A stretch of 64,000 bases of DNA from Candidatus Saccharimonadales bacterium (GCA_041600715.1 JBFIJM010000001.1:387-64386), one strand, 5' to 3'; shown: positions 3,001 to 40,033, counted from the stretch's first letter. Notes: a model not told the origin generated them from the sequence alone. Numbers and translations: made by a program.

Positions 3001-3031
3001 TGAAGAAGTAGCCGGGGTAACAGCCCCTTGA
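2..3031 (+). CDS. Tail-fibre-like cell-surface protein (5' end outside window) with two internal peptidase-S74-type intramolecular chaperone domains and an H-type-lectin-like C-terminus
   Basis: The frame of track ORF 251..3031 stays open back to nt 2, so the track start is an internal TTG. G/T/S/N-rich fibre-like repeats. Two SD[SE]RVKK...GVIAQ[EQ]L..LFPELV...YNLKAV segments. Coiled-coil-like DDLENQINSNEARLTAVENN. Duplicated NATFKEAVRFEKD unit. C-terminal VTFDKEKSRPPII..NVTSQGFEVV..FSWVAIQ pattern. Confidence 0.8.
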   Translation, partial: GLTFTSGNLALGGGNISDVGTLGLSGAITGATATNTINGLIINSGALSGITGITFTSGGLNLNSGGITNAGAIAGATTISASGLVTSVGLTSGSGLIQGTGGLTITGATNINTSGSTVVNIGNASTPLTITSTGFKVTSGGAITGVSTLGLSGAITGATATNTINGLIINSGALSGITGITFTSGALNLNSGGITNTGSIAGATTLNLSGAITGATATNTINGLIINSGALSGITGYSQSSGNFAISGTGTFSTGTGVLTLNGATSISGSNNFSVGTGTAIFGGRINANAGITVATGQSLTVNGDALTDLVGNGLQNTAGVLTIDATTAGTVAGTGSNSGLVVSADGLSLLRGCANNQILKWSTTGPQWNCAADNTGVSDSRVKKNVVTINDNILDTLKNIRVVEFDYICESPAFDTQHCDIDHQFGVIAQELQALFPELVFEDANGYLNVRYDMLGIYNLKAVTRLATLLSYNGDAWLNNVSTGNTLRLTSTGQLQNITGLSITSGGASIVGGINNNNGGLTNTGSIAGASTINASGLITTTGGLVTSGATSNINVSSNFATNINTGTSTGAINIGNGTASNTVNIGNGLTAFSLNSTGVDISSAGVISGITGLSANGNTGSTIATCTAGQYIGNGVRVDNGIITAGTCRNDASGISDERVKKDVASVGSILDRIADINVVSFNFKVSEMPQLNLDHGLQYGVIAQQLEQLFPELVSQREDGYKEVNFQGLSFYNLKAVSEIAQYINADGSARLHKLNVSGNVNVAGVLEVGTLRVDNIEGLDYLGRIDDLENQINSNEARLTAVENNQNLNLDLNNITLGKLTATADTSLQKLTVNLDLIAKGAMVVNGNATFKEAVRFEKDVLFEGQINVLGYANVQGLTVNLDLIVKGSMVVEGNATFKEAVRFEKDALFEGDVAVKGQTTFNNDTAGLVTVKAGSTTTQVTFDKEKSRPPIIALTLGNGKFAQYSYRNVTSQGFEVVLATPALEDLTFSWVAIQTEEVAGVTAP
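62..235 (+). repeat. Intragenic 174-nt (58-aa) repeat, dispersed copy A
   Basis: TLGLSGAITGATATNTINGLIINSGALSGITGITFTSGGLNLNSGGITN.G.IAGATT. It is nearly identical at nucleotide level to 443..616. Confidence 0.85.
443..709 (+). repeat. Intragenic tandem repeat, copies B and C (partial), period 171-174 nt
   Basis: Copy B is 443..616 and partial copy C is 617..709. They share long identical nucleotide runs, for example caccaacaccatcaacggtctaataattaactcgggtgccttaagtggtataac. Confidence 0.85.
1136..1414 (+). other. Peptidase S74 / endosialidase-chaperone-like domain, copy 1
   Basis: SDSRVKKNVVTINDNILDTLKNIRVVEFDY...HQFGVIAQELQALFPELVFEDANGYLNVRYDMLGIYNLKAVTRLA. Ser and the Lys five residues later (the catalytic dyad spacing of the family) are present. 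Preceded by C..ILKW....W.C..D. Confidence 0.75.
1973..2233 (+). other. Peptidase S74 / endosialidase-chaperone-like domain, copy 2
   Basis: SDERVKKDVASVGSILDRIADINVVSFNF...LQYGVIAQQLEQLFPELVSQREDGYKEVNFQGLSFYNLKAVSEIA. The Ser/Lys(+5) dyad is present and a Cys pair precedes it. Confidence 0.75.
2504..2749 (+). repeat. Two 141-nt-period coding repeats (LTVNLDLI.KG.MVV.GNATFKEAVRFEKD.LFEG)
   Basis: Units start at 2504 and 2645. An identical 43-nt core ggcaatgctaccttcaaagaagcggtacgattcgagaaagatg occurs at 2552-2594 and 2693-2735. Confidence 0.85.
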
Positions 3032-26934: not shown

Positions 26935-27035
26935 AATCAAGTTAACCCACCCTAAATAGCTAGTACTATACGGTTAGATAACACTTTATTTATGGTGTGC
27001 TTGTTATGGGCACATGGTGTACAATAACCTGTATC

Positions 27036-27875
27036 ATGGAGATCATAAGCAAGTTCAGGTGCCGTTTTGTTCGAATTAGTTTACTGTTGGCAATGGCTAC
27101 TTTTGTTGTGTTCCCTGCTGTAAATGAAGCCGCCACCCTGTCTACCAATTTTTCCGCAGGCGGAGAACTTGTTCAGGGTAATATAGTTAGTCTGGATAAA
27201 GATGGGCGTACGGTTATTAGGGCTAATCGCGATAATATCGCGAATCTACACGGTGTTGTTGTTAATTCAAGTGATGTGTCATTCTCGCAGAACAATGATA
27301 ATGGAGTCTCTGTCGCTAGTACGGGTGTTATTGAGACACTTGTTAGTGACGTTAATGGTGAAATTAACAGCGGTGACCCGATAACAGTGAATCTCATAGA
27401 AGGTATAGGTGAAAAAGCCTTAGGAGTAGGTAAGGTTATTGGTGTAGCACAAGGTTCATTTGATGGTACGAATGGCACAAGCTATACCTACACACAAGAC
27501 GGAGAAAGCAAAACAATAAAAATAGGCACAATTCCGGTCAAAGTTGAGGTAAGTAACTACGGCGGAAAACAGGGAAGTGCAAGTGCTCAGGATTCAAACC
27601 TTAATCGAAGTAAGATTTTACAAGTAGCCGATGGCCTTGCTGGAAAGCAGGTTAAGGCCATAGCTTTGATAATTGGTTTTCTGTTCGTTCTAATCGGCGG
27701 GTTTGTCGCTACATTCCTTATAACTTCATCAGGTTATGCGTCTATGATTTCTGTTGGGCGTAATCCTCTATCTGAAAAAAAGGTATTAAAGGCACTCGCT
27801 CGAGTCCTGCTGATTGCGATAGGAGTGTTCTTAACTGGGCTCTCCTTAGCTTACGTCACAATAAAACTTGTATAA
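27036..27875 (+). CDS. Secreted or membrane protein (signal peptide, beta-rich ectodomain, C-terminal TM pair), hypothetical
   Basis: The ATG at 27036 lies 10 nt after TACAAT (27020-27025). Signal-like RISLLLAMATFVVFPAVNEA. C-terminal AIALIIGFLFVLIGGFVATFLI and VLLIAIGVFLTGLSLAYV. Confidence 0.6.
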   Translation: MEIISKFRCRFVRISLLLAMATFVVFPAVNEAATLSTNFSAGGELVQGNIVSLDKDGRTVIRANRDNIANLHGVVVNSSDVSFSQNNDNGVSVASTGVIETLVSDVNGEINSGDPITVNLIEGIGEKALGVGKVIGVAQGSFDGTNGTSYTYTQDGESKTIKIGTIPVKVEVSNYGGKQGSASAQDSNLNRSKILQVADGLAGKQVKAIALIIGFLFVLIGGFVATFLITSSGYASMISVGRNPLSEKKVLKALARVLLIAIGVFLTGLSLAYVTIKLV

Positions 27876-27968
27876 AACTATTTACAAGTTCTAGGGTTGT
27901 GATTATAGTTATGGTTAGGTGATAAAAAATAAAAATACACCAAAAATAAAAACAAAGAAATTGTCCAG

Positions 27969-30900
27969 ATGGACGAACACCAAAAACAAACACCAATGAC
28001 AGATATTACCCCAGGCGTAAGGCGGGAGGGGTTTGCTGTAATTGATAGGAAGATAAGCGTCAAGAAAGCTCCAGTGAGACTATCTGTTGATGAAAGAGGT
28101 AGTGTACCAGCCTCTGGTGAGATAGATGCAACTTCAGAAGATTTATCGTTAGGCTCCAGCTCTACAGCGACAGTTGTAGTGCCAAACCCTGTAGCCTCAA
28201 ACGTACCTACACCTCAGGCGATGTACGACGGGCATAATTTTGCAGGCAAGGGATCTAAGAAAAGAATTATTTTAACCATTAGTGCGTGGATGGGTGTGTT
28301 TGTACTCATCTCAGCAATTATTTTTGCCGTTGTTTCATCTAGAAGTAATGACGAAAATGCAGAAAACAAAGTTCAACCAATAACTTCAATACCTAAAGAA
28401 GATCTGCTTAGTGCATCACAAAAAGACTTTGGAACACGTAGCGAAGTAACTATAAATGGTCCTCTCCAGGTAAAGAATAAATTTACAATCAGTCCGTCCG
28501 AAAAGCCATTGAATCCACAAGCAGGTCAGATATATTTTGATGGTAAAACAAAACAATTTGTATTTTATGATGGAGAAGGTTACCAAACTCTCATAACTAA
28601 TCAGCTGTCTGATCAGTTCGGTTCATTGAGTCGGGCAGGACCGGGGACGGGGTTGTCACTTAGTGGCACTCAACTTAATAATAGCGGAGTTTTAAGCATT
28701 CAAGGACAATCGGGTAACCTGACAATAACAGGTGGGCCCGGTTTAGTCGTTAACGGCCTACAACTAGCCAATACCGGCGTGCTGTCTGTTCAAGGAACGG
28801 CCGGTAATGTTGTATTTAGCGGTGGAGCAGGTATTGCAGTAAACGGAACACAGATTAGCAATACAGGCGTCTTGTCAGTCGTCGGTACCGCTAACCAGGT
28901 TAGTGTTAGCACGGCAGGTGGAGTAGTGACCGTTTCACTGCCGCAGAACATCTCGACTAATTCATCGCCACTATTCAATGGGCTCAACTTAACCAATGCT
29001 TTATCGGTAGCAAACGGTGGCACAGGATCAAGTGCTATCAACTTTGTTGCAAACGGTTCAGTATATTACGACGGAACACGACTTGTTTCTACTTCTGCAC
29101 CAGCTAGTGCTGGCCTTTGTCTGATTAGCACCGCTGGCGCCCCAGCGTTTGGCACATGTCCTGGCTCCAGTGCGAGTATAGGTGGTTCGGGAACGCCTGG
29201 TGCTATCCCCTACTTTGACTCTGCCAACACAATCGCTGATTCAATAATGGTACAATCCGGATCGACAGTAACAGTTGCCGGAACCTTAGATGCTACATTT
29301 CTAGTGGGAGATGGCTCCAGTGTCACTAATGTTGATGCAACAGCTTTGAGTGGTCAGGGTTCTGCATATTATAGAAACGCATCCAATATAAATAGCGGTA
29401 TACTCGCCACTGCTTACGGCGGCACAGGCTTGGCAACGACCCCTGCTAACGGACAATTATTAATTGGTAACGGATCTGGCTATAGCCTTGGTACAATCGG
29501 TAATGGTGGCGGATTAACTGTAACTAACGGAGTCGGTACTATCAGTGTTGCGGTAAATTATGGTTCAACCGCCAACACCTCGGCAGAAGGTGATAAACAG
29601 ATAACTGTAACTGCTGGAACTAACTTAACTGGTGGCGGTGTTGTGACAATTGGTGCTGGCGGAACACTGACACTGAATGTTGCGAGTAGTCCAACCTTCT
29701 CGGGTAATTTAAGTGTTCAGGGTGGGTCCGCTACACTTGGCACTGTGTCACAAGCAGGTTCATTAGTGCTAAATGACGGTGCAGGCAATATTGGGACTCT
29801 CCAGGTGGCTTCGCTTGGGCAAGGAACTATTTATACCTTGCCCGATCCAGGTGTAGCCACAGCGACCATTTGTCTAACGACCAACAACTGTGTTGGTCCT
29901 AATGGTGGTGGCGTTACTTCAACTGGAACAGCTAATAAACTAGTAATATTTAGCGGTGGCGCATATAGCCTAGCTGATTCAATCGTTACTCAGTCTTCCG
30001 GCCTTATTACAGTAGACGGTAATCTTTCTGCGACTGCCCTGCAGGGCAACGGAGCAGGATTAACTGACCTTGATGCCGGAAACATAACCACTGGTATATT
30101 ATCAATCGCACGAGGCGGTACTGGTATAAGTCTAACTCCGAACAATGGACAGCTTCTGATAGGTAATGGTACTGGTTATAGTCTAGCTACAATAACCAAT
30201 GCTGATGGCACGGTAGAAATAGTTACTGGCCCAGGTAGTATACAGATCTCGGTTCCAAGAGCTGACCAGTGTGCGACTTGTGCAGACTATACACTTAGCA
30301 ACTTAGCAGATGTAATAGCTATAAATAAATCTCTGCTACCTGCATCTGCAGGCAGTATCAGTCTCGGTGGCGCAGGATTGCCATATCAATATCTATACCT
30401 CTCAGGGGATGAAGTAGCCAATCCAGGGAGTAATTACTTTACTATTACCGGCGATGCTTCTGCTCAGCGAACAATTACCTTGCCGGATGCATCCGGTATA
30501 GTTTGTCTCGATAACGGTAACTGTGCAGGTGCGGGCGGCGGCATAGTCGGTAGTTCTGCAGGTACCACAGGGTATCTCCCAGTCTATACGGGTAGCTACA
30601 CTATAGCTGACAGTATTGTCAGTCAATCATTGGGGGTTCTGTCTGTCGGTGGAAATTTGAACGTAAGTGGTAACGTCTCAATAACTAATGGCTTGACAGT
30701 AACAAACAATATTTCTGCTGCATCATTTAATAACCTTACCCTAACCGCTCTAGCAGATGGCTTCAGCTTATTGGGTGGAACAACCTCTCGAACGCTAACT
30801 GTGCAAGGCAGTAACATTACACTTAATCAAAGCCTTCAGACAACAGACACCCCAAATTTCTCGGGCCTCACTCTTTCTAACTCCCTAGGTGTAGCCTATG

Positions 30901-33900
30901 GGGGTACTGGTATTCTCGGTGGGCCAACAGCCAACGGTCAACTGCTGATAGGATCTAGTACTGGTAACTATACACGCGCTACTTTGACAGCAGGTAGCGG
31001 AATTGTTATTACGAATTCAGCAGGCGGTATAACAGTTGCTGCGCCAACCGCGGGTACTTGTACTTCTGGTTGTGCCGACCAGTCATTGTCTAATCTTGCA
31101 GCAATAAACATCAACACAAGTTTGCTTCCTAACTCAGGCAATACAGTTAGTCTGGGTTCTCTTACTCGCCCATTCCAGAGCATTCGTCTTAATAGTACTG
31201 CTGGCGCTCAAGGATTTAATATTACAGGTACGAATGCCACCGGCACGGAGGTTACTATAGCCTTGCCAGTATTGAATGGTACCGTTGCTTTGGTGCAAAC
31301 CGCAGGTTCTAGCACTACTCAAAACGGGGATCTGAATATCGGTGGAAATATAATCGGCAATAGGTTGATTAGTGGTCTAGTCGGTACAGATGACGGTACT
31401 TCGTCTTCCAATGTAATGCTTAGAAGTGGCAATGCAAGCTCCGGGAATTCCGGCAATGTATCTATTGACTCAGGAAGCGCTAGTGGTACTGCTGGCACAA
31501 TATCCATAGCAACTGTTAATGCGAGCGGATTGACTCTTGGTCGAGCTGGAGTGCAAGTTTCTATTCCTGGCGGACTGAACACTCAAGGTAGCGATATTGT
31601 TAGCCAAAACGGTAACCTTAACCTAGGAACTGGGAGCATCACATCTGGTAATATCAATGGACAGACTATTAGTAGTAGTGCAAACTTCACTGGTACAGTT
31701 CTAATACAAGGAGCTGATGCTCTTACTTTAGGAACTTCTGGAGCCAACACAGGTGCGATCATTTTCCGTAACCTTAACGGTAGCAACAGTGTGAAGCTCA
31801 AGGCATCCGACCTTAACCCAGGATCCGATATAACATTTACTCTACCAAATGCGCTACCAGGAAGCACCGAGTGTGTGACGCTCAGCGCTACTGGCCAATT
31901 TGGATCACAAAACTGTAGCGGTGGCTTAACCGGTAGTGGTAGTGATGGCACATTCTCAATATTTACTTCAGGTGGTACTGCATTGACTGACTCTATACTG
32001 TCTCAGAGTAGCAATACCCTAACTATTCAAGGCTCAAGCAGTAATCTAGTCGTAAGTGGCGGAACATCTGGTGGATTGGGTAATAACTCCATATCACTAG
32101 GAACAGCATCGTCACGTACTGGTGGAATCAACTTTTATAATGAAAGTAACGCCAACGTAGCATCGATAGTAAGTGGAACATCTGCCAATAGTTACACGCT
32201 TATTCTGCCGACCGATCTAGATACAACCGGAAAGTGTCTAAACGTCGGCGCAGGTGGACAAATCGGCTACTTCTCATGTGTATCTAGCGGTGGCGGTGGT
32301 GGAACAGGAGTAACTGGAAGTGGTACGACTGACAGGTTAGTACGATGGACAGACGGCGGTTTATCTGTTGTAGGCGATTCAGTAGTTCGAGACAACGGAA
32401 CACGTGTCGGTATCGGTATTGCACCTGATGCAACTGCAGTGTTTGTAGTTGGAAGTAGTGGCGCATTCAAGGTAACAAATGCAGGCGCCTTGACCTCTGC
32501 CGGAATTACGAATAGTTCTGGAGGTATAGATAACAGCAGTAGTGGTATCACAAATACCGGAGCAATTTCTGGGGCTACAAGTGTCAGTGCCTCAGGCTTA
32601 ATCTCTACTAGCGCAAATAATCAGGCGCTTACACTCAGTGGTGCGCCGACTAATAGCGCAACGCAATCACTTCTACAGATTGGTAGTGCGATTGTGGGCG
32701 GTAATACATCGGCAAACGGTGGAACATACATAGGACTAAACGCGCCAAATAGTGGTGCTGGCTCTGTTGCAGATTTAATAAATCTTCAGAAGAACGGGGT
32801 CAGTCTCTTTAGGGTTGCAACAACCGGCGCCGTCACTGCAGGGACTTACAATAGTTTGTCATTACAAGCAAATGCCACAGGCTTTCAGGTTGCTGGCGGT
32901 ACGGCATCAAGACAGTTGACTGTAACAGCGAATGCTACGATTGATCAAAACTTGGCTGTAGGTAGTAACGTAAGTTTTGGTACGCTGACTCTAAGTACGG
33001 CATTAAGCCCAGCTAACGGTGGTACCGGAATCGCAGGTGGACCTACAGCTGATGGTCAACTACTCATTGGTTCTGCCGGAGGCACATATACACGGTCTAC
33101 CCTTACAGCTGGAAGCGGGATCAATATCTCTAATGCATCGGGCTCGATAACTATCAGTTCACCAAGTGCTGGATCTTGTTCTACATGTGCTGATAGACAG
33201 CTAAGCAATCTGACTGGAACCACAGCTATACCAGTAGATCTCTTGCCATCATCTGCAGGCACGATTAACATTGGCTCTGACACTGCTCCATTCAATAGTC
33301 TGTATGTAGGCACCGACGGTAACGCCTTCAGGATAACTGGCACAGCGACTTCAGATCAGACAGTGACTTTGTTTGATGCAGGCGGGCCAAGTGAAATATG
33401 TGTCAAATACAACGGCGGTGCCAACAGCAACTGTTCTGGTACCGGTGGTGGTATTACAGGTAGTGGAGCTGGCACATCGGGAACAATACCGGTGTATACT
33501 GGAAGTTATTCAATTGCTGATAGTATCTTGAGCCAGTCGGCCGGTGTAGTATCTGTAGCAGGTGGCTTAAGTGCTACTGGCGGTGTCAACTTCTCAAGTA
33601 CTCTTGCCGTAACCAATGCAGTTACAGGTGGAACTTTCAACGGGCTAACACTCACCTCAGCATCAGACGGATTCACCATAAATGGCGGTACTACTCCACG
33701 AACTCTGACAGTTCAAGGGGCAAATGTATCGATAAACCAGAGCTTACTGACATCTAGCAACGTCACATTTGCAGGAGTTACTGCATCTGGCAACCTGAGC
33801 ATTACAGGAACCAGCACACTCACTGGAGCAGTTACCGCATCGTCAATCGCTCCTCCAGCTTCAACAGCGTTTATTCTGGGTGCGAACGGTGCTGGACAGA

Positions 33901-35549
33901 CTACTAATCTTCAGGGTAGTACTATTACGTTCACTAACGGGGCTCGTACCTATGGATTCAATAGCGTTGCTTCTGGATCGCACACAATTTGTGATTCAAG
34001 TGGTAACTGCGCTAGCGCGGGCGGTGGTGTCACTACTGTCGGCGGTACTTTAAATAAATTAGCCAAGTTTAGTGGTTCGCAGACAATCGTAGACTCAGTA
34101 TTCAGTGATGATGGTACAAACGGTACAATCTCTGGGAGCTTGTCTATACAAGGAACAACCCTTTCAGGTAGCGGTGCACTGACGGTGGCTAGTACTGGTG
34201 GCGCCAACAACCTTACTCTTAACTCCGGTTCTGGCACTATTATCTTCGGTGCCAATACTTTCCAACGCACTGCAACCGGGGGTGTAACCTTCGACCTAGT
34301 TGATGTTAACCCGACTACGTTCACCGTAACAAATAGTCATGGTACTGGAGTTGCTAATCTGAGCGTGGAAGGCTCTGGCACTTTCGGTGCAGGAGTAACA
34401 TCAACTGGTGGAGTGGTAAATCTCAACGCCAGCTCAAACAACGCAACCAACATAAACACCGGTACTAGTACAGGAGCTGTCGCAATAGGTAATAGCGCTA
34501 CTTCAAGCCTGACCATCGAATCTGGCACGGGTACTACAAGTCTATTTAATGGAGCAACTGCTCACACTATAAACTTCGCTACTGGAGCGGCTTCTCAGAG
34601 TATAACAATAGGATCCATTAATACTACAAGTCTTACCAAGATCCAGGGTGGCGCAACAGGAAGTGTCAGCATCGGAGCGGTCCTGGCAGAGACTAACAGC
34701 TCAACAGTCAATATTGCAAACACGAGTAATGCAACAGGCACTCAGACGGTCAGGATTGGCTCAACCGCGAATTCTGCCAACTCCACTATTTTGCAGTCTG
34801 GATCAACCAACGGCGTTATCGTAAGGTCCGACGGCACCACTGGATTTAGAGTTCAAAATGCCAGCGGAAGTACGACTATATTTACCGTAGACAGCACCAA
34901 CTCCATAGTTACCATAGGTAGTGCCACAGGTTCACTTACAGGCAGAGACCTTGTAGTAGCAGATCTTGATGTTACAACTTCACTTCGTGTGGGTAATGGC
35001 ACAAACGGGGTGAGCTTCAATGATGCGACATCTGGTAAGTTCCGCCTCAGTGGTACAGCTCGTAACTCCAAGAAACTCTTGTTAACCGCAGAATATGCAG
35101 GCTTAGTTCTTGACCCAGACGGCAGTAACAACATAGGGTCTGCTACCAGTGCATTCGATGCAACCCAAAGGGAAAGCTACTATAACTGGAGTACAACTCA
35201 AGCGACAAATCAGGACTATGACTTTGTTGTTCAGGTGCCACTACCGAGCGATTTCGACGGACTTGATGGCAGTAATCCGATAACCATCGACCGCTGGACA
35301 AGCAATACTACTAACGGAACTATTACAGCCACACTTTTAGATACAGCTGGCTCAGCCGTAATTAACTGGAACTCATGTTCGCTTACCCCAGGTAGTTCAA
35401 GTACTTGGACAACTACAACTGGATGTTCGATATCAACAGGAACCTTCACTGCTGATGGAGTAATTACTCTACGGATAAAACTTCAGGCACCACAGAACGG
35501 CAACACAAGAATCGGTAATATAACAATAAATTACTTAAGTAAGTTCTAA
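27969..35549 (+). CDS. Giant (2526 aa) membrane-anchored surface protein built from concatenated tail-fibre-like modules
   Basis: Uninterrupted 7.6-kb ORF with an N-terminal TM (ILTISAWMGVFVLISAIIFAVV). Seven CysX5-13Cys plus Gly-rich junctions, each followed by a G..(N)KL..F(S/T)G....(A/V)DS.(V/L).Q motif. Four GGTG..NGQLLIG units. Three C..CAD..LSNL....LLP..G...(L/I)G units. A beta-sandwich-like C-terminus. Confidence 0.85.
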   Translation: MDEHQKQTPMTDITPGVRREGFAVIDRKISVKKAPVRLSVDERGSVPASGEIDATSEDLSLGSSSTATVVVPNPVASNVPTPQAMYDGHNFAGKGSKKRIILTISAWMGVFVLISAIIFAVVSSRSNDENAENKVQPITSIPKEDLLSASQKDFGTRSEVTINGPLQVKNKFTISPSEKPLNPQAGQIYFDGKTKQFVFYDGEGYQTLITNQLSDQFGSLSRAGPGTGLSLSGTQLNNSGVLSIQGQSGNLTITGGPGLVVNGLQLANTGVLSVQGTAGNVVFSGGAGIAVNGTQISNTGVLSVVGTANQVSVSTAGGVVTVSLPQNISTNSSPLFNGLNLTNALSVANGGTGSSAINFVANGSVYYDGTRLVSTSAPASAGLCLISTAGAPAFGTCPGSSASIGGSGTPGAIPYFDSANTIADSIMVQSGSTVTVAGTLDATFLVGDGSSVTNVDATALSGQGSAYYRNASNINSGILATAYGGTGLATTPANGQLLIGNGSGYSLGTIGNGGGLTVTNGVGTISVAVNYGSTANTSAEGDKQITVTAGTNLTGGGVVTIGAGGTLTLNVASSPTFSGNLSVQGGSATLGTVSQAGSLVLNDGAGNIGTLQVASLGQGTIYTLPDPGVATATICLTTNNCVGPNGGGVTSTGTANKLVIFSGGAYSLADSIVTQSSGLITVDGNLSATALQGNGAGLTDLDAGNITTGILSIARGGTGISLTPNNGQLLIGNGTGYSLATITNADGTVEIVTGPGSIQISVPRADQCATCADYTLSNLADVIAINKSLLPASAGSISLGGAGLPYQYLYLSGDEVANPGSNYFTITGDASAQRTITLPDASGIVCLDNGNCAGAGGGIVGSSAGTTGYLPVYTGSYTIADSIVSQSLGVLSVGGNLNVSGNVSITNGLTVTNNISAASFNNLTLTALADGFSLLGGTTSRTLTVQGSNITLNQSLQTTDTPNFSGLTLSNSLGVAYGGTGILGGPTANGQLLIGSSTGNYTRATLTAGSGIVITNSAGGITVAAPTAGTCTSGCADQSLSNLAAININTSLLPNSGNTVSLGSLTRPFQSIRLNSTAGAQGFNITGTNATGTEVTIALPVLNGTVALVQTAGSSTTQNGDLNIGGNIIGNRLISGLVGTDDGTSSSNVMLRSGNASSGNSGNVSIDSGSASGTAGTISIATVNASGLTLGRAGVQVSIPGGLNTQGSDIVSQNGNLNLGTGSITSGNINGQTISSSANFTGTVLIQGADALTLGTSGANTGAIIFRNLNGSNSVKLKASDLNPGSDITFTLPNALPGSTECVTLSATGQFGSQNCSGGLTGSGSDGTFSIFTSGGTALTDSILSQSSNTLTIQGSSSNLVVSGGTSGGLGNNSISLGTASSRTGGINFYNESNANVASIVSGTSANSYTLILPTDLDTTGKCLNVGAGGQIGYFSCVSSGGGGGTGVTGSGTTDRLVRWTDGGLSVVGDSVVRDNGTRVGIGIAPDATAVFVVGSSGAFKVTNAGALTSAGITNSSGGIDNSSSGITNTGAISGATSVSASGLISTSANNQALTLSGAPTNSATQSLLQIGSAIVGGNTSANGGTYIGLNAPNSGAGSVADLINLQKNGVSLFRVATTGAVTAGTYNSLSLQANATGFQVAGGTASRQLTVTANATIDQNLAVGSNVSFGTLTLSTALSPANGGTGIAGGPTADGQLLIGSAGGTYTRSTLTAGSGINISNASGSITISSPSAGSCSTCADRQLSNLTGTTAIPVDLLPSSAGTINIGSDTAPFNSLYVGTDGNAFRITGTATSDQTVTLFDAGGPSEICVKYNGGANSNCSGTGGGITGSGAGTSGTIPVYTGSYSIADSILSQSAGVVSVAGGLSATGGVNFSSTLAVTNAVTGGTFNGLTLTSASDGFTINGGTTPRTLTVQGANVSINQSLLTSSNVTFAGVTASGNLSITGTSTLTGAVTASSIAPPASTAFILGANGAGQTTNLQGSTITFTNGARTYGFNSVASGSHTICDSSGNCASAGGGVTTVGGTLNKLAKFSGSQTIVDSVFSDDGTNGTISGSLSIQGTTLSGSGALTVASTGGANNLTLNSGSGTIIFGANTFQRTATGGVTFDLVDVNPTTFTVTNSHGTGVANLSVEGSGTFGAGVTSTGGVVNLNASSNNATNINTGTSTGAVAIGNSATSSLTIESGTGTTSLFNGATAHTINFATGAASQSITIGSINTTSLTKIQGGATGSVSIGAVLAETNSSTVNIANTSNATGTQTVRIGSTANSANSTILQSGSTNGVIVRSDGTTGFRVQNASGSTTIFTVDSTNSIVTIGSATGSLTGRDLVVADLDVTTSLRVGNGTNGVSFNDATSGKFRLSGTARNSKKLLLTAEYAGLVLDPDGSNNIGSATSAFDATQRESYYNWSTTQATNQDYDFVVQVPLPSDFDGLDGSNPITIDRWTSNTTNGTITATLLDTAGSAVINWNSCSLTPGSSSTWTTTTGCSISTGTFTADGVITLRIKLQAPQNGNTRIGNITINYLSKF

Positions 35550-35551
35550 TC

Positions 35552-38500
35552 ATGAGCGAGCGTGAATACGAACTGATTAAACGAACTATACTCATCGAGA
35601 AACGAACGTTCTTGAATAATTCTAATAACGTCCAGAAATTTGTAAATAATAATAGAGTTAACAAAGTGTTTAGTCATATTTTGAGTCGTCATCCTCGACC
35701 ATTTATGTATTTATCACTTTGCTTGTTGCTACTATTTCAATCTGTTGGCATGGCTCTACTGCCTTCGCTAGCTAACCCTGACAAACTCTACAACCTCTCT
35801 GATGAGACCCAACAATTGACAGGCAAGACCAACGATACTTTATCCAAGAGACTAACCTACGACCCAGAAAAGAAGATCTACCAGTACAACAAAGAAGCCG
35901 CTCCAGCCGGAAACCCAGGTAGTCCAGAAGAAGCAATGGCTTCTGCTCAGCAAAGCCAAAAGGTAGGCGGAGGAGCTGACAACTACACTGTAGACTTATC
36001 CGTTGACCCAACCAAAGGCGTCACTGTCCGCGATGCTACCGATACTTCTGGCTCACTAGCCATCAGTATGGTTCCTCAGTTTGGAGCCCGAGAAGGTAAA
36101 CAAAAAGACGGACGTATAATCTATCCACTAAAAGGTAAGAAAGGTCACCTAGTCTACAGTGTTAAAGCCAATGGTCTCAAAGAAGATATTGTCCTAAGCG
36201 AAGAACAAGGCAATGACCTAGACTTTAGCTACAAACTAAACCTCCCAGAAAGCCTAGAAGCTAAACTACTAGATAACGGCAGTATTGGTATATACTCTGC
36301 CGACACCACACTGTTTGGTAACATCTCCTTTGGCTCAGACCAAGACAGAGATAGGGTAGAGAAAGCCAGAAAGAACGCCGAGAAGAACAACCTAGTCTTC
36401 AATATACCCGCACCAGTAGTAGTCCAAGCCAACAAAGATAACCAAACAAACAGCAAAGATAACCAACAAGACACCAACGAAACCAAGAAAGACAACACAG
36501 TAAAGTCTAAGTTTGAACTAAACGGAGACACCCTAACCGTCAAAACAACCGGACTAAAGAACGCTAACTACCCACTAAGCATAGACCCATCCGTAGCCGT
36601 AACCAGTGCCAGTGACTTCGCTAAAGGCAACCTAGAAGACGGCATAGAGATAGACACCACCAACAACCAGATAAAGAGAGCAGGACTGACTGGGGGGAGT
36701 GTGGGGTCGTGGACGACGGATGGCGGAACAAGCTTTAGTGGTACAAGAACATACGCCGGAACGGTGGCATATAACGGCTATCTTTATCTAATTGGCGGAT
36801 CAGGATCTGGAGGTTATCGGACAGATACTCAATACGCCCCCATAGATCCAAGTGGAGAGATAGGAGCTTGGACTACCAGCGCGTACTCTTTCACAACTGG
36901 TAGAGATAGATTTATGGCTGTGACATACAATGGCTACATTTACATCATGGGTGGCTTTGCTTCCAGTACTTACTACAGGGATGTGCAATACTCAAAAATA
37001 CAGTCAGATGGCTCAATAGGAGCTTGGTCGTCTCTTGCTAGTTTCAATACTCCAGCGCGGTTTGGACACGCAGGCTTTGCATACAACGGCTATATCTATA
37101 TTACTGGCGGGTGTACAGCTGATAACATCATATCTTGTACTGCCTGGACTACGAATGTCCAGTATGCTTCCATCAATGCGGACGGAACACTTGGAGCTTG
37201 GACAAATAACCCCAACAGTTTTCTCAGCGCTAGGTATGGTCACTCAGCCACCGTCTACAACGGTTATATGTACATCATGGGGGGAAATATACAGGGAGGA
37301 AACGCAAACATCATTCAGTACGCATCTATAAATGCTGACGGTAGCGTAGGTACGTTCGCTGTTAGTGCTAACAACTACACGACTAACAGGCAGGAGCACA
37401 CCACTATAGCACTAGCTGGATATCTATACGTCATGGGGGGGAACAACGGTGGTTCATTCCTTAATACTGTTCAGTATGCACCGATTAATGCGGACGGAAG
37501 TATCGGAGTCTGGTCGACATCCACAAATTTCACTACAGCACGCTTCGGTCATGCAAGCATCGCATATAATAACAAGTTGTATATCATTGGAGGTTGTAAT
37601 GCTGGAGCATGCAGTAGCTGGCTTGGAGACGTACAGTATACGTCGATTGATCCGGCGGGCGTTACCAGCACCTACTCTACAACTACATCTTTATCGTCCA
37701 CTAGGTTCGGACACGCATCGGTAACTTACAACGGATACTTATACGTCGTAGGGGGGAATGTAGGCGGTTCATTCAGCGGTAATATCTCCTATGCTCCAAT
37801 AAATTCTAACGGAACTGTTGGCGCTTGGGCTACCGCAGGAACATTTACCACAGCCAGATATCTTTTGACTGCCGTAGCCTATAACGGCCACATGTATATT
37901 ATGGGTGGAACAGACGGAACATACAGGAACATCACACAGTATGCACCCATAAACTCGAACGGCACTCTAGGTACCATAAATAGCACCACGACAACGTTTG
38001 CGGGTGTAAGATCTACTTTTGCATCGGTAGCATACAATGGATATATGTACGTTACTGGTGGCTATAATGGCACAACAAGCATAAGCAGTATCCAATATGC
38101 GCCTATAGATAGCAACGGTAATATAACAACAACTTGGACTGCAGGCACAAACATGTCTGCAAACATCAACGGTCACGCAGTCGTAGCATTTAACAACAAG
38201 CTATATCGCCTAGGAGGAAACAACAACGCGACCGTAGAATACCTTACTATTAATAGCGACGGATCTCTTAGCGCCAGTTGGACTGCTACGACAAGTTTTA
38301 CAACCGGTCGCACACAGTTCTCGGCTACGTTCGACAAGGGTTATATGTATATCTTTGGCGGAGGTAACAACAGTGGCACTTACTATAATGATGTTCAATA
38401 TGCCCTGGTAAATGCTGACGGTACTATCAGCGCTGGTGCATGGAAAACAACACAGAGCATTACCACGGCCCGAGATTTGATGGGGGCTGTGATCCACGGC

Positions 38501-40033
38501 GGTACAGCCTATATTACAGGAGGACGTCATGCCACTACTGATACTGCATGCCATGGTAGTTCAAGCCAATTTTGCTCTGACGTACAGTATGCTCGAGTAA
38601 ATAACGGAGGTACTGGCAGAATTGGAACCACGACAGAAGTTAGTAATTTTTCTAATGAGAGAGGAAGATCCGCGACCGTGGCCTATAACGGTTATCTGTA
38701 TGTGATAGGGGGGTTTCATACCCAAGCACCAGCAGGGGTATTGTCCGATGCACAGTATGCCCCAATCTTATCCGATGGGTCACTCGGAAGCTGGCAATCT
38801 GCGGGCACCGGTGGAACATTGGCGAGTAGCGTCCAGTGGGCTAAAGCACAAGCAAGAAATGGCTATATATATCTTTCGGGAGGCGTATCAAATTCTGGAG
38901 TGTTCCAGGGGGTTAACTACGCTCTAGTTTGCACAGGCGAGAATAACGGAGTACAGGGATGTAACTCAACGCCCGGCACTCTTGGTACATGGACTTCTGC
39001 CGAGGCCGGGGGCTCAATACCTGTTAAATCGTCTGGGAGTGCCATTGCTTTGGTTGACGACTATATATATGTGATGGGGGGCTGTACCAGTTATTCTGGC
39101 ACTAACTGCATATCATTATCTCAATCAGTATATTTCGCTCGTTTCAACTCTAATGGAACCTTGGGGGCTTGGCAATCTACAAATGCATATGGTAACTCAC
39201 GACATTATTACTCTACCTTCGCGTCAAATGGATATATATATCTAAGTGGCGGATGTAATATAGATTGTTCAACTAAGTACGCCGATGTTCAATATTCTAA
39301 AATCCAATCTGACGGGAGTCTAGCGGTTTGGCAAACAACCACAAGATTACCTGAAGCGTCAATATACGCTTCAGGCTCTTCGGCAAACGGGTATGCCTAC
39401 ATTGTGGGAGGTCAGAATTCTTCTGTTAGGTTAGCTTCGGTTTATTTTGCAACAATAAATTCTAACGGAACCATTGGCGACTGGTTTAAAGTGAGCACAA
39501 CTTTTGCCGGTGGTACAGGACTGGACCAAAGTGATGTAGCAAATTATAACGGTTATTTATATGCAACTGGAGGCATATATGACACAGGTAGCACTAATGA
39601 TGTCCATAAAATAGGTCTAAACTCAATTGACCGCAAAGGTTCGTATTCGTACTTGGTTGATCTGGCAGGAGACGGCGTATTAACCAAAATATTAGCACAA
39701 GGCTTAGCCACAAAAGGCTCGAAGATACATTTTGGAGGCAGGAACTCACTGGTTTCTAGTACTTCGTTTGGTGCGACTTCTTTTAACCTAGGTTTTTTAC
39801 CAGGCTCTTTAGTTACTATTCCCGCTACAGAGAGTCGATATAGACAGCTTAAATTTGTTTTAGATGATACTCAAAGCTCAGCATTCCCAGACATTATGAG
39901 CCCCCAGTCTACTCTAGATGATTTTGAGGCGTACTTCAGGGCAGCAACTGATGGTTCAGGCTCTAAACGCCTGAGAGGTGGTAAGACCTTCACCACAGAA
40001 CAGCAACGCTCCCTAGACGCTCAACCACAATAA
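35552..40033 (+). CDS. Large (1493 aa) membrane-anchored protein with about 18 Kelch-like beta-propeller blades
   Basis: The ATG lies 2 nt after the stop of the giant gene. TM FMYLSLCLLLLFQSVGMALL. The unit YNGY.Y..GG....(~15 aa)..QYA.I..DG..G.W......T.R.GH occurs 18 times. Confidence 0.85.
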   Translation: MSEREYELIKRTILIEKRTFLNNSNNVQKFVNNNRVNKVFSHILSRHPRPFMYLSLCLLLLFQSVGMALLPSLANPDKLYNLSDETQQLTGKTNDTLSKRLTYDPEKKIYQYNKEAAPAGNPGSPEEAMASAQQSQKVGGGADNYTVDLSVDPTKGVTVRDATDTSGSLAISMVPQFGAREGKQKDGRIIYPLKGKKGHLVYSVKANGLKEDIVLSEEQGNDLDFSYKLNLPESLEAKLLDNGSIGIYSADTTLFGNISFGSDQDRDRVEKARKNAEKNNLVFNIPAPVVVQANKDNQTNSKDNQQDTNETKKDNTVKSKFELNGDTLTVKTTGLKNANYPLSIDPSVAVTSASDFAKGNLEDGIEIDTTNNQIKRAGLTGGSVGSWTTDGGTSFSGTRTYAGTVAYNGYLYLIGGSGSGGYRTDTQYAPIDPSGEIGAWTTSAYSFTTGRDRFMAVTYNGYIYIMGGFASSTYYRDVQYSKIQSDGSIGAWSSLASFNTPARFGHAGFAYNGYIYITGGCTADNIISCTAWTTNVQYASINADGTLGAWTNNPNSFLSARYGHSATVYNGYMYIMGGNIQGGNANIIQYASINADGSVGTFAVSANNYTTNRQEHTTIALAGYLYVMGGNNGGSFLNTVQYAPINADGSIGVWSTSTNFTTARFGHASIAYNNKLYIIGGCNAGACSSWLGDVQYTSIDPAGVTSTYSTTTSLSSTRFGHASVTYNGYLYVVGGNVGGSFSGNISYAPINSNGTVGAWATAGTFTTARYLLTAVAYNGHMYIMGGTDGTYRNITQYAPINSNGTLGTINSTTTTFAGVRSTFASVAYNGYMYVTGGYNGTTSISSIQYAPIDSNGNITTTWTAGTNMSANINGHAVVAFNNKLYRLGGNNNATVEYLTINSDGSLSASWTATTSFTTGRTQFSATFDKGYMYIFGGGNNSGTYYNDVQYALVNADGTISAGAWKTTQSITTARDLMGAVIHGGTAYITGGRHATTDTACHGSSSQFCSDVQYARVNNGGTGRIGTTTEVSNFSNERGRSATVAYNGYLYVIGGFHTQAPAGVLSDAQYAPILSDGSLGSWQSAGTGGTLASSVQWAKAQARNGYIYLSGGVSNSGVFQGVNYALVCTGENNGVQGCNSTPGTLGTWTSAEAGGSIPVKSSGSAIALVDDYIYVMGGCTSYSGTNCISLSQSVYFARFNSNGTLGAWQSTNAYGNSRHYYSTFASNGYIYLSGGCNIDCSTKYADVQYSKIQSDGSLAVWQTTTRLPEASIYASGSSANGYAYIVGGQNSSVRLASVYFATINSNGTIGDWFKVSTTFAGGTGLDQSDVANYNGYLYATGGIYDTGSTNDVHKIGLNSIDRKGSYSYLVDLAGDGVLTKILAQGLATKGSKIHFGGRNSLVSSTSFGATSFNLGFLPGSLVTIPATESRYRQLKFVLDDTQSSAFPDIMSPQSTLDDFEAYFRAATDGSGSKRLRGGKTFTTEQQRSLDAQPQ
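36698..39622 (+). repeat. Array of about 18 Kelch-type repeats (period about 50-60 aa) within the 1493-aa protein
   Basis: I counted 18 occurrences of [YKHT].[YA][ILVRA].[GS]GG blade cores, from YLYLIGGS to YLYATGGI. Confidence 0.8.

What the first reader, a model, noticed from the sequence alone, without database searches (positions are those of the whole stretch)
35552..40033. About 18 Kelch-like blades (enough for three six-bladed propellers) in a membrane-anchored protein translationally coupled to the giant fibre gene
Seen: the ATG at 35552 lies 2 nt after the stop of the 2526-aa gene. A cytoplasmic 50-aa N-terminus is followed by one TM, then a region of about 300 aa (a ..DG.IIYPLKGKKGHLVYSVKANGLKEDIVL...F.YKLNLPE.L.AKLLDNGSIGIY....LVFNIPAPVV...YPLSIDPS pattern with an N/Q/K/D-rich insert). 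After that, 18 units share the core (Y)NGY.Y..GG and the connector QYA.I..DG..G.W......T.R.GH (36698-39622). A tail of about 136 aa follows. Known: Kelch motifs of 44-56 aa with a GG doublet and conserved Y/W/R form blades of beta-propellers, usually 6 or 7 per propeller. Inference: this is a tandem triple propeller displayed on the cell surface, co-expressed with the fibre protein. It could be a binding platform for carbohydrate or protein, or a partner of the fibre. Prokaryotic proteins with this many Kelch blades in one chain are uncommon to my knowledge.
Basis: partly seen in the sequence, partly recalled or inferred. Interest (0 to 1): 0.6.

Follow-up and report, generated by a model that had tools for sequence, protein, structure and literature searches.

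The report
Triple Kelch propeller partnered with surface fibre
This gene from a Saccharimonadales-like (ultra-small, host-dependent) bacterium encodes a membrane-anchored surface protein predicted to form three six-bladed Kelch propellers, one of a large uncharacterised family that usually sits directly after a very variable tail-fibre-like gene, so the two probably form one surface appendage.

Summary
ORF 35552-40033 (1493 aa) starts 2 nt after the stop of the 2526-aa gene. It has a basic N-tail, one hydrophobic helix, a conserved ~270-aa N-domain, exactly 18 Kelch units and a ~115-aa beta-rich C-domain.

AlphaFold2 models residues 345-1493 with pLDDT 89.7 and pTM 0.90. The best structural matches are closed six-bladed Kelch domains (TM 0.83). 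Homologues carry about 18 or about 24 units, and odd connectors follow units 6, 12 and 18. Together these point to three six-bladed propellers.

The protein is not rare. At least 699 similar proteins exist, almost all Saccharimonadales (CPR), and none is characterised. The N- and C-domains match nothing in Pfam, NCBIfam or PDB.

The upstream fibre varies greatly except for its last ~190 aa. That domain occurs in 1137 protein clusters, always at the C-terminus. Fibre-then-Kelch adjacency recurs in 9 of 13 Kelch-centred loci. A Kelch-family gene lies next to or near the fibre gene in 26 of 51 fibre-centred loci.

Best reading (inferred, about 0.45): the Kelch protein is the conserved membrane-side partner, as dock or assembly platform, of an exchangeable fibre. 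An independent host-binding adhesin remains a strong rival. Function is untested.

The parts
27881..27909 (+). Best sigma-70-like promoter match in the region (TTTACA-17-TATAGT), 60 nt upstream of the fibre gene. Possible operon promoter.
   Evidence: This is a consensus match only, and the number of matches in the region does not exceed the shuffled expectation.
27969..35549 (+). Upstream partner gene: a 2526-aa fibre-like surface protein. It has a ~97-aa N-tail, one TM helix (residues 98-122, nt 28260-28334), a G/T/S/N-rich repetitive body and a conserved C-terminal domain.
   Evidence: No Pfam or NCBIfam match. The body matches the PHROG tail-fibre family phrog_31660 at E 2.9e-10 over 3 stretches.
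34932..35546 (+). Conserved C-terminal ('CT') domain of the fibre (residues 2322-2526). It is the only part of the fibre shared with relatives.
   Evidence: A full HMMER scan found 1137 cluster representatives at E<=1e-3, and in every one of the 150 best hits listed the domain is at the extreme C-terminus of proteins of 183-3140 aa. A profile finds it in the gene directly upstream of the Kelch gene in 8 other loci, at E 1e-35 to 1e-85. It is absent from Pfam and from PDB sequences.
35550..35551 (+). 2-nt spacer between the fibre stop codon (TAA 35547-35549) and the Kelch ATG (35552).
   Evidence: Junctions of 2 and 5 nt occur in L008 and L010. In many metagenome loci the stop-to-stop frames overlap.
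35552..35701 (+). Basic N-terminal tail (residues 1-50), predicted cytoplasmic.
   Evidence: It has 10 K/R against 4 D/E. Basic tails of variable length precede the hydrophobic segment in 113 of 120 homologues.
35702..35770 (+). Single hydrophobic helix (residues 51-73), a predicted signal-anchor.
   Evidence: No conserved AxA cleavage motif appears across the family. Cleavage after 'SLA' at residue 74 is not excluded.
35774..36586 (+). Family-specific N-domain (residues ~75-345), mostly beta. It is the best-conserved part of the protein.
   Evidence: AF2 gives pLDDT >90 for most of residues 145-345. It is 34-47% identical in 13 loci. It has no Pfam hit and no significant PDB fold match, with best E 0.0098. 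One viral fold match was found: A0A8S5MN12, E 6e-6.
36425..36494 (+). A 21-nt tandem repeat (3.3 copies) encoding the N/Q/K/D-rich insert in a loop of the N-domain.
   Evidence: AF2 confidence is low at residues ~300-320.
36587..36757 (+). Linker plus a partial Kelch unit (G-S-W...T-R-T-Y, residues ~381-402) ahead of blade 1. It is a candidate 'velcro' strand that closes propeller 1.
   Evidence: Most homologues give one extra partial unit hit, 19 rather than 18. AF2 places a strand at model residues 36-40. The closure role is inferred.
36758..37714 (+). Kelch units 1-6 (residues 403-721), inferred to be propeller 1. It ends in an atypical connector 'IDPAGVTSTYSTT' that lacks the usual W.
37715..38671 (+). 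Kelch units 7-12 (residues 722-1040), inferred to be propeller 2. It ends in an atypical connector 'VNNGGTGRIGTTTEVSNFS', which AF2 models as a long strand.
   Evidence: The same atypical connectors appear in the family consensus.
38672..39685 (+). Kelch units 13-18 (residues 1041-1378), inferred to be propeller 3. Its blades are longer and more irregular.
39686..40030 (+). C-terminal beta-rich domain (residues ~1379-1493). It includes the conserved tail motif RLRGGKxF...LD at nt 39968-39985.
   Evidence: AF2 models strands with pLDDT 69-93, dropping below 55 for the last ~30 residues. Conservation is shown. It is not in Pfam or PDB and is not homologous to the fibre CT domain (hhalign probability 0.2%).

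Best explanation
What it is (well supported): a type-II (N-in) membrane-anchored extracellular protein of a Saccharimonadales-like CPR bacterium. From N- to C-terminus it has a basic cytoplasmic tail, one TM helix, a novel conserved N-domain sitting directly on the membrane, three rigidly packed six-bladed Kelch propellers and a small beta-rich C-domain. It belongs to a large, uncharacterised family restricted mainly to Saccharimonadales.

How it most likely works (inferred): it is the conserved, membrane-side component of a two-gene surface appendage. The upstream gene supplies a long fibre that resembles a phage tail fibre. The fibre body varies freely in length and sequence, but its last ~190 aa (the CT domain) are conserved. 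The Kelch protein recognises that conserved CT domain. It does so either as a permanent dock or as a platform that captures and assembles fibre C-termini as they leave the Sec translocon. The variable fibre body is what faces the host bacterium or the environment. The two are made together from one transcript.
For: Architecture.

Family: at least 699 homologues, mostly 1375-1560 aa, 32-43% identical over 85-100% of the length. Source names, where given, are mostly Candidatus Saccharimonadales or Saccharibacteria.

Conserved pairing seen from the Kelch side: a gene ending in the CT domain lies immediately upstream on the same strand in the window and in L001, L002, L003, L006, L007, L008, L010 and L013. 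That is 9 of 13 informative loci, with gaps of 2-135 nt, in at least three different genomic neighbourhoods.

Conserved pairing seen from the fibre side: of 51 informative metagenome loci found with the CT domain, 19 have a Kelch-family gene directly downstream on the same strand. Three more have it directly downstream but convergent, and 4 have it within 0.7-2.4 kb.

Conservation pattern: the fibre body cannot be aligned between loci, whereas the CT domain is 40-60% identical. The Kelch protein (34-42%) is conserved to a degree approaching housekeeping neighbours such as LCP (29-49%) and ParB (47-52%).

Co-variation: across 15 loci, pairwise distances of the CT domain and the Kelch N-domain correlate at r 0.76. 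The partial r after controlling for ParA is 0.58, with permutation p 2e-4.

Background knowledge: Kelch propellers are protein-interaction platforms, and conserved gene order across divergent genomes predicts physical interaction.
Against: No direct evidence of binding exists. The co-variation could result from the two genes being linked and inherited or transferred together, and partial Mantel tests are permissive.

The pairing is not obligatory. Four Kelch loci lack a CT-fibre within 10 kb: L004, L009, L011 (three tandem Kelch genes) and L012. Of the CT-fibre loci, 25 of 51 lack a Kelch gene nearby, and in 8 of those the fibre is followed directly by parA.

In this window the fibre has its own N-terminal TM anchor, so its CT domain would be the distal end. 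That fits transient assembly better than permanent docking.

Relatives with four propellers also pair with fibres (L008). A simple match of three propellers to one trimer therefore does not hold.
Confidence: 0.45

Rival explanations
1. It is an independent adhesin or lectin. The 18-blade ectodomain binds a repetitive ligand on the host cell wall (glycan or protein) with high avidity. It is co-expressed with the fibre because both serve attachment, but the two do not bind each other.
For: The predicted topology is extracellular. Beta-propellers serve as surface adhesins in Saccharibacteria, for example PilX2 (PMC11623550). The Kelch gene occurs without an adjacent fibre in L011 and L012, and as tandem paralogues in L011 and L013. 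A Kelch-like stretch occurs in a Bacillus phage tail-fibre protein.
Against: The invariant residues are the canonical structural Kelch positions (GG, Y, W, R), and no extra repeated polar motif suggests one binding site per blade. The protein sits directly on the membrane with almost no stalk, which is a poor position for reaching a host. Its conservation is closer to housekeeping level than to an arms-race adhesin. This reading does not explain the fixed fibre-then-Kelch order or the conserved CT domain.
Confidence: 0.3
2. It is a structural envelope component, such as an S-layer-like lattice or cell-wall-organising scaffold. It would be encoded in a core chromosomal region next to parAB, signal peptidase and an LCP cell-wall ligase.
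For: The position between L21/IleRS and parA-parB-SPase-LCP is conserved in several genomes. Conservation approaches that of housekeeping neighbours. AF2 predicts a rigid multi-domain body (pTM 0.90). S-layers are reported in Patescibacteria, and a beta-propeller S-layer protein exists in Dehalococcoides (bioRxiv 10.1101/2024.05.28.596244).
Against: The gene is absent from the cultured oral species Southlakia epibionticum, where L21 directly precedes parA and no Kelch annotation exists, so it is not a universal envelope requirement. The family also occurs in unrelated neighbourhoods (L008, L010, L011, L012). No lattice-forming evidence is available.
Confidence: 0.12
3. It is an enzyme of the Kelch class, such as a sialic-acid mutarotase (as JGI auto-annotates some homologues) or a galactose-oxidase-like oxidase.
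For: Some homologues are labelled 'N-acetylneuraminic acid mutarotase' by JGI. There is a weak generic hit to Kelch_4, described by Pfam as 'Galactose oxidase, central domain'.
Against: No NCBIfam match was found, so there is no NanM equivalog. The accessory domains of galactose or glyoxal oxidase are absent. NanM is, from my own knowledge, a single ~370-aa propeller, whereas this protein has 18 blades plus two novel domains. The JGI label is most likely a generic Kelch-based annotation carried over from NanM (my reading, not checked).
Confidence: 0.03

Closest known systems
Eukaryotic six-bladed Kelch domains (LZTR1, KLHL12/20, KEAP1, NS1-BP, KLHDC10) and designed SAKe6 propellers
   Same: They share the repeat motif and fold. 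Pfam Kelch_1 and PF24681 score well above their cut-offs. PDB sequence hits reach 4.6e-16. Foldseek gives TMt 0.79-0.83, with rmsd ~3 A for LZTR1.
   Different: Those are single intracellular propellers fused to BTB/BACK or similar adaptor domains. This protein has three in tandem, is extracellular and TM-anchored, and carries unrelated N- and C-domains.
Phage tail fibre followed by its assembly or adhesin gene (T4 gp37-gp38, lambda Stf-Tfa); known from the literature, not tested here
   Same: A long variable fibre gene is followed immediately by a second gene. The fibre body here matches a PHROG tail-fibre family. The conserved C-terminal part of the fibre is a likely assembly nucleus.
   Different: Tfa and gp38 are small soluble proteins. 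Neither Pfam nor PHROGs assigns the Kelch protein to an assembly-chaperone family. The locus is chromosomal and has no relatives in phage genomes or IMG/VR.
Multi-propeller scaffolds (DDB1, CPSF160, megalin/LRP2)
   Same: They carry several beta-propellers in one chain and appear among the Foldseek hits.
   Different: TM-scores are only 0.14-0.22. Their blades are of the WD40-like or YWTD type rather than Kelch, and the propeller arrangement differs.
NanM (YjhT) sialic-acid mutarotase, a bacterial periplasmic Kelch propeller
   Same: It is a bacterial, exported, six-bladed Kelch protein, and it is the source of the JGI label on some homologues.
   Different: It is a single-propeller enzyme. 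There is no NCBIfam hit here, and the architecture differs.
Saccharibacterial pilus-tip propeller adhesin PilX2 (RCC1-type, seven blades)
   Same: It is a surface beta-propeller implicated in host binding in the same phylum (PMC11623550).
   Different: It has a different repeat class, forms part of a type IV pilus, and is found in oral strains. The one oral species checked here (S. epibionticum ML1) lacks this Kelch family.

Membership tests
Kelch-repeat beta-propeller superfamily | Repeats of 44-56 aa with a hydrophobic stretch, a GG doublet and spaced Y, W and R residues | tested here: met
   There are 18 units of 48-66 aa carrying these residues. The family consensus shows the same pattern.
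Kelch-repeat beta-propeller superfamily | Scores above the curated Pfam thresholds | tested here: met
   Kelch_1 scores 151 bits against a cut-off of 20.1. PF24681 scores 183.8 against 50. PF24981 scores 87.5 against 50.
Kelch-repeat beta-propeller superfamily | Folds into closed 6- or 7-bladed propellers | tested here: met
   The AF2 model has pLDDT 89.7 and pTM 0.90. Six-bladed Kelch crystal structures superpose at TMt up to 0.83 with rmsd 3.1 A. This is prediction only, and the coordinates were not inspected.
BTB-Kelch (KLHL) substrate adaptors | N-terminal BTB and BACK domains | tested here: not met
   Pfam finds no BTB or BACK domain. The N-terminus is a TM anchor followed by a novel domain.
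NanM / YjhT mutarotase | Single ~370-aa propeller that matches the curated NCBIfam model | tested here: not met
   There is no NCBIfam hit at E<=0.01. The protein is 1493 aa with 18 blades.
NanM / YjhT mutarotase | Conserved catalytic residues | not tested
   No structure-based alignment to NanM was made.
Galactose / glyoxal oxidase | Seven-bladed propeller with accessory domains (Glyoxal_oxid_N, DUF1929) and a copper site | tested here: not met
   Only generic Kelch models hit, and no accessory domains were found.
Phage tail-fibre assembly proteins (Tfa / gp38) | Match to a Pfam or PHROG assembly-chaperone family | tested here: not met
   The Kelch protein matches only an unannotated PHROG, phrog_12615. 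Pfam gives Kelch models and one marginal DUF421 match, and no assembly-chaperone family.
Sortase-anchored (LPXTG) surface proteins | C-terminal LPXTG motif followed by a hydrophobic segment and a basic tail | tested here: not met
   Neither protein contains LP.TG. The C-terminus is hydrophilic.
Saccharimonadales TM / N-domain / 3x6-Kelch / C-domain family (unnamed, defined here) | Full-length collinear similarity, including the N-domain and the C-terminal RLRGGK tail | tested here: met
   All 55 aligned homologues share the architecture. The N-domain is found in 13 of 13 loci.

The most novel reading that the evidence does not exclude
Environmental Saccharimonadales carry a modular two-component host-recognition appendage that has not been described. 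A conserved membrane-embedded triple (sometimes quadruple) Kelch-propeller base accepts or assembles interchangeable phage-tail-fibre-like fibres through a novel conserved ~190-aa C-terminal domain. Fibres could then be swapped or diversified without changing the base. That would give a molecular handle on how CPR epibionts choose their hosts.
Probability: 0.35. Interest if true: 0.75.

Novelty: new variant of a known kind. Interest (0 to 1): 0.55.

Why it matters
How CPR/Patescibacteria epibionts recognise and hold on to host bacteria is largely unknown beyond type IV pili. The genetic work so far comes from oral strains, and the one oral strain checked here lacks this gene pair.

If correct, the work defines three things:
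- A widespread, uncharacterised surface-protein family with two domains absent from Pfam.
- A second novel domain that marks more than a thousand clusters of hypervariable fibre proteins.
- A conserved genetic link between the two families.

That yields a concrete, testable candidate for a host-range determinant in environmental Saccharimonadales. It also adds an unusual rigid three-propeller Kelch scaffold to the structural repertoire.

Tried and rejected
- Looking up the exact protein to name the source genome failed. It is not on record by gene call. Cluster look-ups gave only 'NCBI, Logan, 771-kb contig' with no name.
- An alignment-based scan of genome contigs failed because no stretch was conserved enough. 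The single-protein scan gave only 6 loci.
- Word-index searches with the fibre CT domain and with the Kelch N-domain returned almost nothing. The full HMMER scan was needed to find the CT family.
- I tested for a period-6 signal in unit-to-unit similarity, as expected from a recent triplication of one propeller. None was found.
- I considered that three propellers might match a trimeric fibre. I rejected this because relatives with about 24 units also pair with fibres.
- I tested whether the Kelch C-domain is homologous to the fibre CT domain. It is not (hhalign probability 0.2%).
- I checked for a phage or prophage origin. Nothing was found in 50,697 phage genomes or in IMG/VR, except one weak Kelch hit in a Bacillus phage tail-fibre gene.
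- I checked whether the 292-aa ORF upstream of the fibre belongs to the module. It is not conserved in any related locus.
- Literature searches for Kelch or propeller together with Saccharibacteria, CPR or Patescibacteria found nothing on this family.

Full report
**Observation**

The window carries an ORF at 35552-40033 (+) of 1493 aa. The preceding 2526-aa ORF ends with TAA at 35547-35549, so two bases separate the stop from the ATG.

The protein starts with a basic tail (10 K/R against 4 D/E in residues 1-50). A 23-residue hydrophobic segment follows at 51-73, and AlphaFold2 models a helix at 48-73. By the positive-inside rule (background knowledge), this gives an N-in orientation with the rest of the protein outside the cell.

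A regular-expression scan finds exactly 18 cores of the type NGYxYxxGG at residues 409-1334, spaced 48-66 residues apart. Pfam confirms Kelch identity: Kelch_1 at E 5e-45 over 13 stretches, PF24681 at E 3.6e-54 and PF24981 at E 1.2e-24, all far above their curated cut-offs. PDB Kelch domains match by sequence down to E 4.6e-16.

The units repeat only at protein level. Tandem Repeats Finder sees no DNA repeat with the period of a unit.

**Structure**

I aligned residues 345-1493 with 55 full-length homologues and ran AlphaFold2. The model has mean pLDDT 89.7 and pTM 0.90 over 1149 residues. That indicates a confidently predicted, rigid arrangement of all domains.

Foldseek against the PDB returns closed six-bladed Kelch domains as the best-superposing targets. 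LZTR1 gives TMt 0.83 at rmsd 3.1 A. NS1-BP and the designed SAKe6 proteins give 0.79, and KLHDC10 gives 0.71. Multi-propeller proteins such as DDB1, CPSF160 and megalin reach only TM 0.14-0.22.

Three further observations point to three six-bladed rings.
- An HMM built from the 18 units counts 18-19 units in 87 of 120 homologues and 24-25 in 11. These are multiples of six plus one partial unit.
- The connectors after units 6 ('IDPAG...', no Trp), 12 ('NNGG...') and 18 are atypical, both here and in the family consensus.
- A partial unit precedes blade 1, as expected for a 'velcro' closure.

I could not open the coordinates, so the propeller count is inferred. Units i and i+6 are no more alike than other pairs, so any triplication is ancient.

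Residues 1-413 were modelled separately, giving pLDDT 80.3. The model shows the TM helix followed almost at once by a beta-rich domain (residues ~145-345, pLDDT mostly >90). This N-domain has no significant PDB fold match, the best being E 0.0098.

The C-terminal ~115-150 residues are modelled as beta strands with pLDDT 69-93. They end in a family-conserved motif, RLRGGKxF...LD.

Neither flanking domain is in Pfam, NCBIfam or PDB sequences.

**Family and organism**

A capped search found 699 proteins at E<=1e-3. The 120 best are mostly 1375-1560 aa and cover 85-100% of the query at 32-43% identity. Where a source gives a name, it is mostly Candidatus Saccharimonadales or Saccharibacteria. Five of the six genome loci found are also Saccharimonadales or Saccharibacteria MAGs.

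An identical protein is recorded on a 771-kb NCBI contig, without a name. The window itself encodes IleRS, ribosomal protein L21, class II RNR, FtsA, FtsZ, ParA, ParB, signal peptidase and an LCP protein. The order of these genes matches that in Saccharimonadales contigs.

In 113 of 120 homologues a hydrophobic segment follows a basic tail of variable length, with a median start at residue 36. The conserved ectodomain begins within about ten residues of it, and no conserved AxA site is present. They are common but uncharacterised.

The cultured oral species Southlakia epibionticum lacks the gene. Its Tn-seq table shows L21 directly followed by parA, and no Kelch annotation appears in the supplementary tables (PMC10633639).

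**The upstream partner**

The 2526-aa protein has no Pfam or NCBIfam hit. It matches a PHROG tail-fibre family at E 2.9e-10. It has a ~97-aa N-tail and one TM helix.

Only its last ~190-205 residues are shared with relatives. A full HMMER scan of 1.84 billion cluster representatives with this stretch found 1137 proteins at E<=1e-3 and 114 at E<=1e-30. In every one of the 150 best hits listed, the match lies at the extreme C-terminus of proteins from 183 to 3140 aa, with a median of 874 aa.

This 'CT' domain has no Pfam or PDB relative. Carriers fall into two N-terminal classes. One has a cleavable signal peptide followed by a conserved 'NFQARL' mature end. The other, which includes the window, has a long tail plus a TM helix.

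**Linkage**

A profile of the CT domain shows that the gene immediately upstream of the Kelch gene, on the same strand, ends in this domain in the window and in L001, L002, L003, L006, L007, L008, L010 and L013. E-values run from 1e-35 to 1e-85 and gaps from 2 to 135 nt.

These loci lie in different neighbourhoods. Several sit next to parAB. L008 and L010 do not.

Four loci lack a CT-fibre within 10 kb: L004, L009, L011 (three tandem Kelch genes) and L012.

In the reverse direction, a metagenome scan with a CT alignment gave 66 loci, of which 51 have at least 1.5 kb downstream.
- 19 have a Kelch-family gene (N-domain plus Kelch units) directly downstream on the same strand, often with overlapping frames.
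- 3 have it directly downstream in convergent orientation.
- 4 have it within 0.7-2.4 kb.
- 25 have none. In 8 of these the fibre is followed directly by parA.

Some of these loci are near-duplicates of each other. Even so, I judge this adjacency far beyond chance for families present in a few copies per ~1-Mb genome. This is my estimate and was not computed.

Across 15 loci that contain the CT domain, the Kelch N-domain and ParA, the CT and N-domain distances correlate at r 0.76. The partial r controlling for ParA is 0.58, with permutation p 2e-4. This supports co-evolution, but physical linkage of the two genes could also produce it.

**Mechanism**

Shown:
- the domain architecture;
- the predicted topology;
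- Kelch identity;
- the breadth of the family;
- the conserved gene pairing;
- the contrast between a hypervariable fibre body and a conserved CT domain.

Also shown is the degree of conservation of the Kelch protein. It is 34-42% identical between loci, compared with LCP at 29-49%, ParB at 47-52% and ParA at 56-61%.

Inferred: the Kelch protein is the conserved membrane-side partner that recognises the CT domain. Two variants remain open.

(a) Permanent dock. This is attractive for fibres with a cleaved signal peptide, since they would otherwise have no obvious anchor.

(b) Transient assembly platform. It would capture C-termini as they emerge last from the translocon and nucleate oligomerisation. 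This fits the window better, because here the fibre has its own N-terminal anchor and its CT domain is the distal end.

I give the partnership reading about 0.45 overall.

The main rival, at 0.3, is an independent multivalent adhesin that is merely co-expressed with the fibre. Solo and tandem Kelch genes fit this reading. A structural envelope or S-layer-like role (0.12) and an enzymatic role (0.03) are less likely, for the reasons given in the rival entries.

**Comparison and novelty**

The protein is a bona fide member of the Kelch superfamily. It fails the tests for BTB-Kelch adaptors, NanM, galactose oxidase, phage Tfa-type chaperones and LPXTG proteins.

Functionally, it most resembles the phage arrangement of a fibre gene followed by an assembly or adhesin gene. 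It shares no homology with those phage proteins, and it is chromosomal.

Literature searches found no description of this family, of the CT domain, or of the pairing. I rate it a new variant of a known kind, with moderate interest. It is not biologically surprising in itself. It does provide a concrete candidate surface module for host interaction in environmental CPR bacteria.

Noticed in passing
window 251-3031 (+): A 926-aa ORF carries a Peptidase_S74 domain, the endosialidase / tail-spike intramolecular chaperone (E 2.3e-29, 2 stretches). This is a second phage-fibre-like surface protein of a different class in the same cellular genome. A 2245-aa S74 protein also lies near a CT-domain gene in L014.
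   Followed up: partly
window 36425-36494: A 21-nt tandem repeat (3.3 copies, 78% matches) encodes the N/Q/K/D-rich insert of the Kelch protein's N-domain. It falls in a low-confidence loop and is longer than in the family consensus, so it looks like a recent microsatellite-type expansion.
   Followed up: partly
window 39968-39985 (Kelch residues 1473-1478): The near-C-terminal motif RLRGGK is conserved across the family (consensus RLRGGKxF...PLDT). It is identical to the RLRGG tail of ubiquitin and lies in a low-pLDDT segment. This may be coincidence, or it may be a recognition or processing site.
   Followed up: no
window 34932-35546 and proteins P0131-P0280: The fibre's C-terminal domain defines a large undescribed family of 1137 clusters at 50% identity, always C-terminal. 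Carriers have two alternative N-termini: a cleavable signal peptide plus a conserved 'NFQARL' mature end, or a long tail plus a TM helix as in the window.
   Followed up: partly
window 26997-27875 (+): A 292-aa ORF lies between L21 and the fibre gene. It has a signal-peptide-like N-terminus and two C-terminal hydrophobic helices. It has no Pfam, NCBIfam or PHROG hit and no counterpart in any related locus.
   Followed up: partly
window 28001-40000 versus flanks: The fibre and Kelch genes are 45-48% GC, against 40-43% in the flanking housekeeping genes. This could reflect their G/A/T/S-rich amino-acid composition or foreign origin.
   Followed up: no
L011 10001-24359; L013 4566-13137: There are tandem paralogues of the Kelch family. 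L011 has three genes overlapping by 4 nt with no fibre gene within 10 kb. L013 has two genes after one fibre gene.
   Followed up: partly
L017-L020, L024, L027, L058, L059: CT-domain fibre genes are followed directly by parA, with no Kelch gene. This is the same chromosomal site as in the window but lacks the Kelch partner. In Southlakia epibionticum ML1 both genes are missing, and L21 abuts parA.
   Followed up: partly
Kelch N-domain model (residues 1-413): The only significant fold match is an uncharacterised 1379-aa protein of 'Siphoviridae sp. ct89Z21' (A0A8S5MN12, E 6e-6, 312 columns, 10% identity). Its length is similar to that of the family. It may be a distant relative or a mis-binned CPR contig.
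   Followed up: no
Bacillus phage vB_BspM_AgentSmith MW749006.1 129096-129896: A gene annotated 'putative tail fiber protein' contains a Kelch-like stretch. It is 24.5% identical to Kelch residues 423-698 (E 1e-5).
   Followed up: no
L004 (contig labelled Omnitrophota), P0102 (Omnitrophica), P0059 (Dongiaceae): A few family members sit on contigs assigned to non-CPR phyla. This could be mis-binning or horizontal transfer. L004 lacks the fibre partner.
   Followed up: no
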